Source of the DNA: Faecalibaculum rodentium
GTDB lineage: Bacteria > Bacillota_I > Bacilli_A > Erysipelotrichales > Erysipelotrichaceae
NCBI RefSeq assembly: GCF_001564455.1
Contig: NZ_CP011391.1
Coordinates: forward strand, 510,001-542,000
DNA length: 32,000 nt
Reading direction: 5' to 3'
A program made the position numbers and the translations under genes. Below are positions 16,506-19,097 of the stretch, piece after piece (position 1 is the stretch's first letter; each line of letters begins with the position of its first letter). The notes beneath the pieces were generated by a model, which was given only the letters and a program-made list of their open reading frames with translations, searched no databases and was not told where the DNA came from.

Positions 16506-16892
16506 GTTGTGTGTCGGGCATGACGCACATCTAGCCGGTGAAAGTCCGGGCACGGGTATTTGCCGCCAAGTGTAGTGAACCGCAAGTCGAAAGCCGCGAG
16601 GCTGGGATGGAAGAAGCGGTGTAGCCAATCTGACGAGCCTACGAACAGAAACCTGATACAAGGCCAAATGGCGGGTGAGGTTGCAACACAAACCAAAGCC
16701 CAAAAGGCAAACGTAAAACCAAGACGGTAAATCAGGAGGTTGTGCAGAGAAAGATGTGTGCCTTACCCCGAGAGATCTCGCAGACGTCAGTCCAATAAGC
16801 TTTAAAAACAGCGATGGTGGTGCCAGTGGCATACGGTCCGAAAATGTTTACTGCGAGAAGTCAGAGCGGAGCATAGTAGGTAGTAATACTGT

Positions 16893-17251
16893 TATGAAAT
16901 GACCTTTGTCAAGAGTGAGTGAGAAGGTATAGTGCCCCCTTACCCCCATTGATGATCATCATTTTAGTTCTAAGCTTGACAGCACTTTACAGAAGCTGCA
17001 AGGAAATTGGTCCCGGCTTTTGGCCACTCTGTTATACGTGGATTGGTTACCAACAGGTCAATGGTTCGCCAGGAGTGGAGCTGTCTGAATACGTGGATCA
17101 CTGCTGTTAAGCAGGCCGACATAGAATTATCGCTCATCACTCAGACCTTGCACATGCAGCTTCTCTGAACTGCTGTCAAAAATATGAACCAAAATGGCAG
17201 GCTGTAGGTTAAAACTCGTTGTTTCTGAAACAAATTGCTTATTGTTGAAAC
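16893..17251 (-). ncRNA. Second (duplicated) copy of the candidate bridge/seek-RNA-encoding IS arm
   Basis: Identical to 17349-17707. The ATACGTGGAT motifs lie at 17034-17043 and 17089-17098. Confidence 0.35.
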
Positions 17252-17346
17252 TCAGTCTCTGGCAATGGAAATGTTATCCGTCATAAGTCCCCAGACAAAA
17301 CAGGAAAGATCTCTCGCAATGGCAGATACAGCTATATTGTGCTTCT
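17252..17346 (-). pseudogene. Duplicated 3' fragment of the IS110 transposase gene (last 31 codons plus stop), with no promoter or start
   Basis: Identical to 17708-17802 and created by the 456-bp tandem duplication. Confidence 0.8.
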
Positions 17347-17348
17347 GT

Positions 17349-17707
17349 TATGAAATGACCTTTGTCAAGAGTGAGTGAGAAGGTATAGTGCCCCCTTACC
17401 CCCATTGATGATCATCATTTTAGTTCTAAGCTTGACAGCACTTTACAGAAGCTGCAAGGAAATTGGTCCCGGCTTTTGGCCACTCTGTTATACGTGGATT
17501 GGTTACCAACAGGTCAATGGTTCGCCAGGAGTGGAGCTGTCTGAATACGTGGATCACTGCTGTTAAGCAGGCCGACATAGAATTATCGCTCATCACTCAG
17601 ACCTTGCACATGCAGCTTCTCTGAACTGCTGTCAAAAATATGAACCAAAATGGCAGGCTGTAGGTTAAAACTCGTTGTTTCTGAAACAAATTGCTTATTG
17701 TTGAAAC
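17349..17707 (-). ncRNA. Candidate bridge/seek RNA region in the IS right arm
   Basis: The repeated 10-mer ATCCACGTAT (minus sense; plus strand 17490-17499 and 17545-17554) occurs twice. One copy is followed by a segment identical to target flank plus core (CTGTCTGAA, 17537-17545). The other is followed by a segment identical to IS end plus core (CTGTTAT, 17485-17491). Exact RNA ends are not determined. Confidence 0.4.
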
Positions 17708-18838
17708 TCAGTCTCTGGCAATGGAAATGTTATCCGTCATAAGTCCCCAGACAAAACAGGAAAGATCTCTCGCAATGGCAGATACAGCTATATTGTGCTT
17801 CTTTCCTTTACGCATCAGCCGGTAGTATTTTCGCCGCATATATTCGTTGGCGTGATCTGCATAGTCGATTACTTCTTTCGAGTTTCCTTGCTGTCTTGAT
17901 TTCAGATCCTTGGATTTGTATCCGATCCTGCCCTTGCAGATCCCTTGGGCGCTTTCCGTCAGGAGCTTTCGAACAAATCTGTTCCCGGCTTTTGAGATAC
18001 CTGTTCGTACCGTTTTTGCGCCGCTGGATTGCTCTCCGGGAGCCAGGCCAAGATAGGCGCCAAGGGTATTGCCTTTATCAAATCGGGTGAAATCTCCTAC
18101 CTCAGTAATCAGAGCAAGAGCAGTCTGTTCTTTGATTCCAATCAGGCATTGAAGCTTTTTGACGTTTTCACTGTATGCTTTGTCTTGGCACAACTCATGA
18201 ATTCTTTGATTCATCTCATCAATACGGTTGTTCAGATAATCATAAGTACGCAGATAATCGTCCAGGGTTTCCCGAACAATCGGGTTGCACTGGCAATGCC
18301 TGAGGAACTGAAGGTGCAGCTGCGTCCAGTTATTCGCTTCACAACGCAGTCCATTGTAAAGTGCGAAAGAAAGAATCTGCTGCTTGATCTTTTTCAGAGC
18401 TGATTTATGATCATCTCTCATTCTCAGATAGCCGGAGACTGCTGCATCCTGATCAGTAGGAATATGAACAGCTTTATAGCCACCGTAGCTTAAGCACTGA
18501 GCAATCATCAAAGCGTCTCTGGCATCCGTTTTTACCCTTTTACCCTGAGGTGCCATCATCGTAGTAGGAGCCAGGATGATGCATTTGACTCCCCTGGCTT
18601 TCAGTTCTGCATAGGGAACATATCCCAGACATCCAGCTTCATAACCGCATTCAATATCAAGATTGCTATCCTGAAGTTTCTCTTTGAGCTTTTTGATATA
18701 GTCGATGACCAGATCTACATCTGCTCCGATTTTAACGGTGGAGAAGATAATATCTTTACCACCGAATTTGGGCTCCATAGCGCACAGGGTGAAACTGTCC
18801 TTGTGGACATCCATTCCGATTTTGATTATTCTTGTCAT
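17708..18838 (-). CDS. IS110-family transposase/recombinase (DEDD RuvC-like N-domain plus Transposase_20 C-domain)
   Basis: The 376-aa product starts MTRIIKIGMDVHKDSF, the N-terminal DEDD motif. The C-terminal region has GIKEQTALALITEVGDFTRF...GLAPGEQSSG...GISKAGNRFVRKLL. A GGAGGT RBS lies upstream. Confidence 0.9.
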   Translation of the reverse strand: MTRIIKIGMDVHKDSFTLCAMEPKFGGKDIIFSTVKIGADVDLVIDYIKKLKEKLQDSNLDIECGYEAGCLGYVPYAELKARGVKCIILAPTTMMAPQGKRVKTDARDALMIAQCLSYGGYKAVHIPTDQDAAVSGYLRMRDDHKSALKKIKQQILSFALYNGLRCEANNWTQLHLQFLRHCQCNPIVRETLDDYLRTYDYLNNRIDEMNQRIHELCQDKAYSENVKKLQCLIGIKEQTALALITEVGDFTRFDKGNTLGAYLGLAPGEQSSGAKTVRTGISKAGNRFVRKLLTESAQGICKGRIGYKSKDLKSRQQGNSKEVIDYADHANEYMRRKYYRLMRKGKKHNIAVSAIARDLSCFVWGLMTDNISIARD

Positions 18839-19097
18839 GTGACCTCCGATTGTATGCGGTAATCCCCGCTCTGTTTGTTTCCTGACTGCAGTGTAAGGGT
18901 AAATCCACGTTGCTACAATCAGGAGGTCATTTCATATTGTCTGAAGGCTCCTGCCGGTTATAGTGAGCGAATCGCTTTTGAGTAATTACCCTGCAGTCCG
19001 AAAGTCAGAATAGTCATAAGGTGAAGGATCGTAACCGGAGCCGGTGAAATGGATGGGGACGGACAGGGAGTCTCTGTAAGAAAGAAGGAAACGCAAA

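What the first reader, a model, noticed from the sequence alone, without database searches (positions are those of the whole stretch)
16868..18951. IS boundaries, TGT core duplication and reconstructed empty site inside an intron hairpin loop
The 13-bp inverted repeats TATGAAATGACCT (16893/17349) and AGGTCATTTCATA (18924-18936) delimit the element. TGT is present immediately outside the left repeat (16890-16892; also 17346-17348) and one nt outside the right repeat (18938-18940). This is consistent with a short core shared by target and donor, as in IS110-family recombination.

Deleting 16893-18940 restores ...GCGGAGCATAGTAGGTAGTAATACTGTCTGAAGGCTCCTGCC... In that sequence GGAGC (16868-16872) can pair with GCTCC (18947-18951). 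The IS would then sit in the loop of a predicted intron RNA/DNA hairpin.

A multicopy, self-mobile intron would be a safe-haven target for a sequence-specific IS. The insertion, in the 5' ribozyme half upstream of the ORF, should abolish splicing of this copy.

An alternative core assignment (CT) cannot be excluded from one copy.
Basis: partly seen in the sequence, partly recalled or inferred. Interest (0 to 1): 0.6.

Follow-up and report, generated by a model that had tools for sequence, protein, structure and literature searches.

The report
RNA-guided IS inside a group II intron

Summary
The 13-bp inverted repeats, the literal TGT positions and the GGAGC/GCTCC pairing are all in the sequence.

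Five uninterrupted copies of the same intron in this genome read ...AATACTGAAGG... across the junction. Comparison with about 60 related elements leaves only CT invariant on both sides (AG in transposase sense).

- **Element:** window 16891-18940; canonical unit 17347-18940 (1594 bp).
- **Cores:** 16889-90 and 18941-42.
- **Check:** deleting 16891-18942 restores a collinear 1961-nt intron.

The element is an IS1111-type member of the IS110 family. It has a DEDD transposase, subterminal repeats and a long 3' non-coding arm holding a two-loop bridge/seek RNA. In relatives the guide segments co-vary with the flanks.

The site lies inside a covariation-supported intron stem-loop, probably domain III, but on a paired strand rather than in an open loop.

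A second IS copy interrupts a small ORF at a similar 11-mer, so the IS is not intron-restricted. The scan has reported another IS110 lineage aimed at an intron hairpin on other DNA (e1-5139101; not checked here).

Verdict: a new member of a known kind, of modest interest.

The parts
16509..20521 (+). Group II intron (class C-like), interrupted by the IS. It is 1961 nt once 16891-18942 is removed.
   Evidence: Rfam RF02001 at 16590-16761 and RF00029 (domains V/VI) at 20447-20521. The boundaries come from six copies, all placed just after a terminator hairpin and T-run. The reconstructed copy is collinear with an intact copy, with 4 substitutions and no indel.
19098..20411 (+). Intron-encoded reverse transcriptase/maturase, intact, 437 aa
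   Evidence: Pfam RVT_1 and GIIM; TIGR04416 at 418 bits.
16868..16890 (+). 5' half of the targeted intron stem-loop: outer stem GGAGC, conserved purine-rich internal loop, inner helix, and the left copy of the CT core (16889-90).
   Evidence: fold_alignment of 11 introns. Three of the 4 outer-stem pairs show compensatory changes. The inner helix 16879-82 / 16887-90 is conserved.
16889..16890 (.). Left copy of the core dinucleotide CT
   Evidence: Empty sites. AG is invariant beside the right end in 19 related elements and in 46 of 46 metagenome hits.
16891..17346 (-). Extra 456-bp copy of the IS right end: the non-coding arm with the guide RNA gene plus the last 94 nt of the transposase gene and its stop codon.
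   Evidence: Identical to 17347-17802. The novel joint at 17345-47 shares only CT with both parent sequences.
17347..18940 (-). Canonical IS unit, 1594 bp. In transposase sense the left end is at 18940 and the right end at 17347.
   Evidence: A second copy at genome 1056230-1057823 has the same ends and 3 substitutions. Family end alignment.
17708..18838 (-). DEDD transposase/recombinase, 376 aa
   Evidence: PF01548 and PF02371. NF033542 'IS110 family RNA-guided transposase' at 203 bits. It carries the GL-P----SG motif.
17432..17635 (-). Candidate bridge/seek RNA. A long closing stem encloses a target-binding loop (guides at 17579-85 and 17541-47) and a donor-binding loop (guides at 17511-20 and 17485-91).
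   Evidence: Fold z-score -3.98. Family alignment and the donor-loop stem with compensatory changes. Guide/flank permutation test. No Rfam family matched it.
17349..17361 (.). Right subterminal inverted repeat (duplicate at 16893-16905)
18924..18936 (.). Left subterminal inverted repeat, 4 nt inside the IS end
18941..18942 (.). Right copy of the core dinucleotide CT
18943..18951 (+). 3' half of the targeted stem-loop: conserved GAAGG internal-loop strand and the outer stem GCTCC

Best explanation
An IS1111-type member of the IS110 family has integrated by RNA-guided, conservative site-specific recombination into one copy of a multicopy class C-like group II intron. The IS carries a DEDD recombinase on the minus strand, 13-bp subterminal inverted repeats, and a 361-nt 3' non-coding arm that encodes a two-loop bridge/seek RNA.

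Exchange took place at a CT core present in both the target and the circular donor junction. One CT therefore flanks each side of the element (16889-90 and 18941-42), and nothing else is duplicated.

The target motif AATACTGAAGG lies in the distal part of a conserved intron stem-loop, by my reading domain III. The core bases are the last two pairs of a 4-bp inner helix, next to a conserved GAAGG strand.

**Shown:** the empty site, the element ends, the invariant core across the family, the stem-loop covariation, and guide-flank co-variation in relatives.

**Inferred:** that this element's own RNA chose this site (it matches 7 of 9 non-core positions), that a circle is the donor, and that the 2-kb insertion disables splicing of this copy.

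The 456-bp duplication of the right end is most simply a by-product of the same recombinase acting at an internal CT. This too is inferred.
For: **Empty site and ends**
- Five intact intron copies have a single CTG at the junction.
- Removing 16891-18942 gives a 1961-nt intron collinear with the intact copies.
- The second IS copy has identical ends. Its site shares 9 of 11 bases with the intron site, and a 13-nt degenerate motif shared by the two sites occurs only 6 more times in the genome, 5 of them in intact introns.

**Core**
- In relatives the base outside AG at the left end varies, while the base inside AG at the right end is always the IS-borne C. Only AG/CT is therefore common to both sides.
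- AG follows the right end in 46 of 46 metagenome hits.
- The duplication joint shares only CT with its two parent sequences.

**Family assignment**
- Pfam and NCBIfam hits and the GL-P----SG motif.

**Guide RNA**
- The 5' guide is the reverse complement of AG plus the next 5 flank bases in many relatives. Mean contiguous match is 3.67 nt against 1.41 in permutations, with 0 of 20000 permutations reaching it.
- The donor loop carries the right-end sequence plus AG, and one guide base co-varies with the left end.
- The donor-loop stem shows compensatory changes.
- With CT as core, the circle junction forms TTGACA-N17-GACAAT, and GATAAT in relatives.

**Published framework:** PMC11208160 and PMC11187229.
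Against: - This element's own guides match the intron site at only 7 of 9 non-core positions and the second site at 5 of 9. Both sites share the same two mismatches.
- One perfect and 30 one-mismatch sites in the genome are empty.
- Only two insertion sites of this exact IS are known. No further copy was found in genome or metagenome scans.
- No circle junction, RNA or transposition was observed.
- The transposase, at 376 aa, is longer than the 330-350 aa quoted for IS1111 members.
- CT versus CTG cannot be told apart from this genome alone. The call rests on relatives.
Confidence: 0.85

Rival explanations
1. One reading: the shared core is TGT, the element spans 16893-18940, and the empty site reads ...AATACTGTCTGAAGG...
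For: TGT is literally present next to the left repeat and 1 nt from the right repeat.
Against: - All five intact intron copies lack the extra 4 nt.
- The right-hand TGT is IS-internal and becomes TAT in relatives, while the left side stays the same.
- The TGT at 17346-48 is part of the tandem duplication.
- The two offsets from the repeats differ (0 and 1 nt).
Confidence: 0.01
2. The element makes a 3-bp target duplication or uses a 3-nt core, CTG. The IS is then 16892-18940 and G 16891 comes from the target.
For: In both copies in this genome CTG is present on both sides, and once in the empty site.
Against: - In relatives the base corresponding to this G at the left-end side varies (C, T, G or A in transposase sense). 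At the right end it is always the same IS-borne base.
- The duplication joint keeps the G with the IS end although the internal parent site has T there.
Confidence: 0.06
3. The insertion was not chosen by this element's guide RNA. Either it is an off-target or chance event, or the IS-bearing intron was acquired as a unit. On this view the likeness of the two sites reflects protein-level or other preferences.
For: Guide matches are imperfect (7 of 9 and 5 of 9), while better-matching sites stay empty. Only 1 of 6 identical intron sites is filled.
Against: - The two independent sites share 9 of 11 bases, including all positions next to the core on the left.
- Natural sites of relatives also show 3-5 of 5 and 2-4 of 4 matches.
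- The other five intron copies are 99.7-99.8% identical and lie at different loci. The intron was therefore already resident.
Confidence: 0.08

Closest known systems
IS1111-group elements with a 3' seekRNA/bridge RNA (ISEc11, ISPa11, ISKpn4, ISPst6; Siddiquee et al. 2024, PMC11187229)
   Same: - DEDD transposase with the GL-P----SG motif.
- Subterminal inverted repeats with short terminal extensions.
[quoted passage not shown] - Site-specific insertion without a conventional target duplication.
   Different: - The transposase is 376 aa, against 330-350 aa.
- The host is a Gram-positive gut bacterium.
- The target is a group II intron stem-loop and a small ORF, not REP, attC or Tn21 ends.
- Guide-target matches of this copy are imperfect.
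- Phylogenetic placement was not tested.
IS621 bridge recombinase system (Durrant et al. 2024, PMC11208160; Hiraizumi et al. 2024, PMC11208158)
   Same: - A CT core dinucleotide included in all four guide pairings.
- Two internal loops that read target and donor.
- The left guide is like the top strand and the right guide is complementary to it.
- The circle junction creates a promoter.
   Different: - In IS621 the RNA lies in the left end, upstream of the gene, and the subterminal repeats are only 2-3 bp.
- Here the RNA lies in the right end and the core reads AG in transposase sense.
- The guides here are shorter (about 4+2 and 5+2 nt).
IS110/IS1111 elements that home to other repeated or mobile DNA (IS4321/IS5075 in Tn21 terminal repeats, IS1111-attC group, REP-targeting ISPpu9; PMC219399, PMC12288879, PMC1525189)
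   Same: A sequence-specific IS that uses a multicopy, structured sequence as a landing site.
   Different: The landing site here is the ribozyme part of a group II intron. I found no paper describing that. Occupancy is 1 of 6, and the IS is not restricted to it.

Membership tests
IS110 family | DEDD (RuvC-like) N-terminal domain plus the PF02371 C-terminal domain | tested here: met
   PF01548 at E 2.8e-11 and PF02371 at E 3.2e-18. NF033542 at 203 bits against a cut-off of 140.
IS110 family | Insertion without a conventional target duplication; a short core is shared by target and element ends | tested here: met
   The empty site has one CT(G) and the occupied site has one on each side. AG/CT is invariant in relatives.
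IS1111 group | Subterminal inverted repeats of 7-17 bp with short terminal extensions | tested here: met
   13-bp exact repeats lie 2 nt (right end) and 4 nt (left end) inside the ends.
IS1111 group | The longer non-coding region, with the guide RNA, lies downstream of the transposase gene | tested here: met
   361 nt downstream (17347-17707) against 102 nt upstream (18839-18940). The two-loop RNA is in the downstream arm.
IS1111 group | GL-P----S(T)G motif in the C-terminal domain | tested here: met
   The motif is present in the translation. It is as defined in PMC11187229.
IS1111 group | Transposase length 330-350 aa and placement in the IS1111 clade | tested here: inconclusive
   The length is 376 aa, outside the quoted range. 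No tree was built.
Bridge/seek RNA-guided recombination | RNA guide segments complementary to both strands of the target and to the element ends, overlapping the core | tested here: inconclusive
   The relation is strong across relatives (permutation 0 of 20000; donor-loop matches). This element's own guides match its two sites at only 7 of 9 and 5 of 9 positions. The RNA itself was not observed.
Bridge/seek RNA-guided recombination | A circular intermediate with a right end-core-left end junction | not testable with these tools
   Only inferred. With CT as core the predicted junction would form TTGACA-N17-GACAAT.
Group II intron, bacterial class C | Ribozyme domains V/VI and an RT-maturase ORF in domain IV | tested here: met
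   RF00029 and RF02001; RVT_1 plus GIIM; TIGR04416.
Group II intron, bacterial class C | Insertion just downstream of intrinsic terminator hairpins; shortened domain V; no endonuclease domain | tested here: met
   Six of six copies follow a hairpin and T-run. Domain V is 3 nt shorter than the Rfam consensus. No HNH domain was found. Class phylogeny was not tested.

The most novel reading that the evidence does not exclude
This IS lineage may use a conserved ribozyme motif of class C-like group II introns as a renewable landing pad. The motif is the inner helix plus the GAAGG strand of the probable domain III, and it is present unchanged in introns of several related genera. One selfish element would then spread by parasitising another that keeps copying the target site. 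The duplicated guide-RNA arm would be a recombinase-made variant that doubles guide dosage.
Probability: 0.15. Interest if true: 0.55.

Novelty: new member of a known kind. Interest (0 to 1): 0.3.

Why it matters
It gives exact, empirically anchored ends, core and target for an undescribed IS1111-type element of a mouse-gut Erysipelotrichaceae genome. The genome length equals that published for Faecalibaculum rodentium ALO17 (PMC4752744). Ends of such elements are often mis-set in databases (PMC11187229), and a real empty site in the same genome is the standard way to fix them.

The nesting of an RNA-guided IS in the ribozyme of a retroelement is a tidy natural example of mobile elements targeting each other. 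The scan reported a similar habit on other DNA (e1-5139101). Otherwise the biology is as expected for the family.

Tried and rejected
rejected on the five intact copies.
- **CTG as a 3-nt core:** set aside on the family comparison.
- **More insertion sites of this exact IS:**
  - The relatives' genomes gave only an 87-89% relative on short contigs.
  - The genome-contig scan with the left end gave one close left end, in Ileibacterium valens, with a different flank.
  - The first metagenome scan found nothing.
  - The second gave related elements only. Their repeated flank turned out to be one locus in many strain contigs, not many insertions.
- **Intron insertions by relatives:** none of the flanks collected looks like the intron site.
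- **Pairing of GCTCC in the RNA with GGAGC of the target:** rejected. That segment is the basal stem of the target loop, and the second site lacks the match.
- **Domain assignment by Rfam:** only a sub-threshold RF01998 match covers the hairpin in an intact copy (18.6 bits). 'Domain III' therefore stays my inference from position and conservation.
- **First permutation script:** It was redone from the loci.
- **Literature:** searches found no paper on IS110-family insertion into group II introns.

Full report
**What is in the sequence**

The region holds a group II intron on the plus strand, at window 16509-20521.
- Rfam RF02001 matches 16590-16761, and RF00029 (domains V/VI) matches 20447-20521.
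- The intron ORF at 19098-20411 is an RT-maturase: RVT_1 plus GIIM and TIGR04416.

Inside the intron, on the minus strand, lies a 376-aa ORF (18838 to 17708). It carries the two IS110-family domains PF01548 and PF02371. It also matches NF033542 'IS110 family RNA-guided transposase'.

- The exact 13-bp inverted repeats are at 16893-16905 and 17349-17361 versus 18924-18936.
- The three TGT positions are as stated.
- The GGAGC/GCTCC pair at 16868-72 / 18947-51 is present.

The left repeat appears twice because of an exact 456-bp tandem duplication, 16891-17346 = 17347-17802. The second left-hand TGT is therefore not independent evidence.

**The empty site**

The window lies in a single-contig genome of 2,542,486 bp. 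That is exactly the length published for Faecalibaculum rodentium ALO17, a PacBio assembly (PMC4752744).

The genome holds five more copies of the same intron, 99.7-99.8% identical and all uninterrupted. Across the insertion point all five read ...AATACTGAAGG..., with a single CTG.

Deleting 16891-18942 (2052 bp) from the window gives a 1961-nt intron. It is collinear with an intact copy, with four substitutions and no indel.

**The core**

From this genome alone, CTG is present once in the empty site and on both sides of the IS.

A second full IS copy lies at genome 1056230-1057823, with 3 substitutions, none in the non-coding arm. It shows the same ends and the same CTG. Its site shares 9 of 11 bases with the intron site.

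Relatives resolve the ambiguity. I compared 19 right ends and 13 left ends of related elements from relatives' genomes.
- In transposase sense, the left-end flank reads nAG followed by the element. The n varies.
- The right end always finishes with the same IS-borne base, followed by AG.

Only AG is therefore common to both sides, which is CT on the window's plus strand. All 46 metagenome hits to the right end are also followed by AG.

The G at 16891 thus belongs to the IS. The element is 16891-18940 and the canonical unit is 17347-18940 (1594 bp). The cores are 16889-90 and 18941-42.

The left 'TGT' is core T plus the two terminal IS bases. The right 'TGT' is IS-internal and reads TAT in relatives.

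The duplication joint at 17345-47 agrees. It shares only CT with its two parents, the internal site at 17801-02 and the left flank at 16889-90, and the G stays with the IS end.

**What kind of element it is**

These features define the IS1111 group (PMC11187229; PMC11208160), and the element has them:
- 13-bp subterminal repeats, set 2 and 4 nt inside the ends;
- a 361-nt non-coding arm downstream of the gene, against 102 nt upstream;
- a GL-P----SG motif.

The protein is somewhat longer than typical, and I built no tree.

**The guide RNA**

The downstream arm folds better than shuffled sequence (z = -3.98). A long closing stem encloses two internal loops, and each loop carries the same conserved 8-mer. 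An alignment of 15-18 related arms shows the following.

- **Donor loop.** It is conserved. It contains the right-end sequence plus AG (window 17485-91). It also has a segment in which one base changes together with the second base of the left end (17511-20). Its closing stem has compensatory changes.
- **Target loop.** Its two short segments differ between elements.
  - The 5' segment (N5 plus CT; window 17579-85 here) is the reverse complement of AG plus the first five bases of the right-end flank. The match is complete in seven relatives and one or two short in several others.
  - A permutation test on 15 elements gave a mean contiguous match of 3.67 nt beyond the core, against 1.41 for shuffled pairings. 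No shuffle of 20000 reached the observed value. Relatedness among elements inflates such tests somewhat.
  - The 3' segment (17541-47) resembles the left flank plus AG, and is followed by the first bases of the left end.

The order, with the top-strand match 5' of the bottom-strand match, is the one reported for IS1111-type seekRNAs.

With CT as core, the predicted circle junction forms TTGACA-N17-GACAAT, and GATAAT in relatives. That fits the junction promoters known for this family. No Rfam family matched the arm.

**A weakness**

This element's own guides predict a site that matches the intron at 7 of 9 non-core positions. The second site matches at 5 of 9. Both sites carry the same two mismatches, at -4 and +1 from the core.

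The genome contains one perfect and 30 one-mismatch sites, and all are empty. Natural sites of relatives are also imperfect, at 2-4 of 4 and 3-5 of 5, so this is not disqualifying. It remains unexplained.

The two occupied sites share a 13-nt degenerate motif. It occurs only six more times in the genome, five of them in the intact introns. Site choice is therefore clearly not random.

**Where in the intron**

I aligned eleven related introns from this and other genera.
Three of its four consensus pairs show compensatory changes.
- The enclosed 22 nt are not an open loop. They form a conserved purine-rich internal loop and a 4-bp inner helix.
- The core C and T are the last two pairs of the 3' strand of that helix (G-C invariant in 11 of 11). 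They are followed directly by a conserved GAAGG.

I read this stem-loop as domain III, for two reasons: a highly conserved junction-like stretch lies just 5' of it, and its internal loop is conserved. That is inference, and domain II is not excluded. Rfam gives only a sub-threshold match there.

The target motif is unchanged in introns of several related genera. None of the related IS flanks I collected lies in an intron.

**Consequences**

A 2-kb insertion here very probably disables the ribozyme of this copy. This is inferred and was not tested. The intron ORF itself is intact.

All six intron copies sit just after terminator hairpins. That placement, the short domain V and the lack of an endonuclease domain mark a class C-like intron.

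Only one of six identical intron sites is occupied. The other IS copy interrupts a roughly 50-aa ORF with a C-terminal hydrophobic stretch, at codon 12. The 'safe haven' idea is therefore possible but not supported as a rule.

**The duplication**

Its boundary coincides to the base with the IS right end. Four bases inside the joint, the IS interior carries a 7-nt copy of the first bases of the left end.

I think a recombinase-mediated exchange at an internal pseudo-site is most likely. Two routes would give this structure:
- unequal sister-chromatid exchange;
- nested insertion followed by homologous deletion.

Slippage on a 2-nt microhomology or an assembly error cannot be excluded without the reads.

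**Comparison and verdict**

This is an undescribed but typical IS1111-type element. Its mechanism follows published bridge/seek RNA work.

I found no paper on IS110-family insertion into group II introns. The scan has already reported another IS110 lineage aimed at an intron hairpin in another genome (e1-5139101; not checked by me).

The finding is real. Its central mechanistic detail, the TGT core and the reconstructed site, is wrong, while its fallback (CT) is right. Novelty is modest.

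Noticed in passing
window 16891-17346 = 17347-17802: An exact 456-bp tandem duplication of the IS right end gives two copies of the candidate guide-RNA gene. 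The joint falls exactly on the core CT. A 7-nt copy of the left-end start lies 4 nt inside the joint.
   Followed up: partly
window 17363-17368 with 18935-18940 (after circularisation): With CT as the core, joining right end, core and left end gives TTGACA-N17-GACAAT, about 97 nt upstream of the transposase start. Relatives give GATAAT. This is a junction promoter, as in other IS110-family elements.
   Followed up: partly
genome C1:1056230-1057823 (L032): The second IS copy (3 substitutions, all in the gene or left end) interrupts a roughly 50-aa ORF with a C-terminal hydrophobic stretch, at codon 12. The neighbouring ORFs have no Pfam match.
   Followed up: partly
genome C1: 98818, 188160, 596987 (+); 129747, 2211393 (-); window 16509: Six near-identical copies of the intron each sit directly after a terminator-like hairpin and T-run. 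The window copy has 4 private substitutions relative to an intact copy.
   Followed up: partly
genome C1:2190143 (-): This is the only perfect match in the genome to the target predicted from the IS guides. It is unoccupied, as are 30 one-mismatch sites.
   Followed up: no
L127-L172 (metagenome contigs): A related IS type with the same right end sits at many different sites. Their first flank bases after AG are nearly always TTGAT, a clean natural example of a 5-nt right-target preference.
   Followed up: no
genome C1:660321-661755 and 1897657-1899092: Two copies of a second, more distant group II intron are present, about 69% identical to the one in the window.
   Followed up: no
L124 (Ileibacterium valens NZ_MPJW01000068): The closest left end found outside this genome (98% over 141 nt). 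Its flank matches the left guide of the 88%-identical element of relative G055. That fits natural re-programming of guides between the two species.
   Followed up: partly
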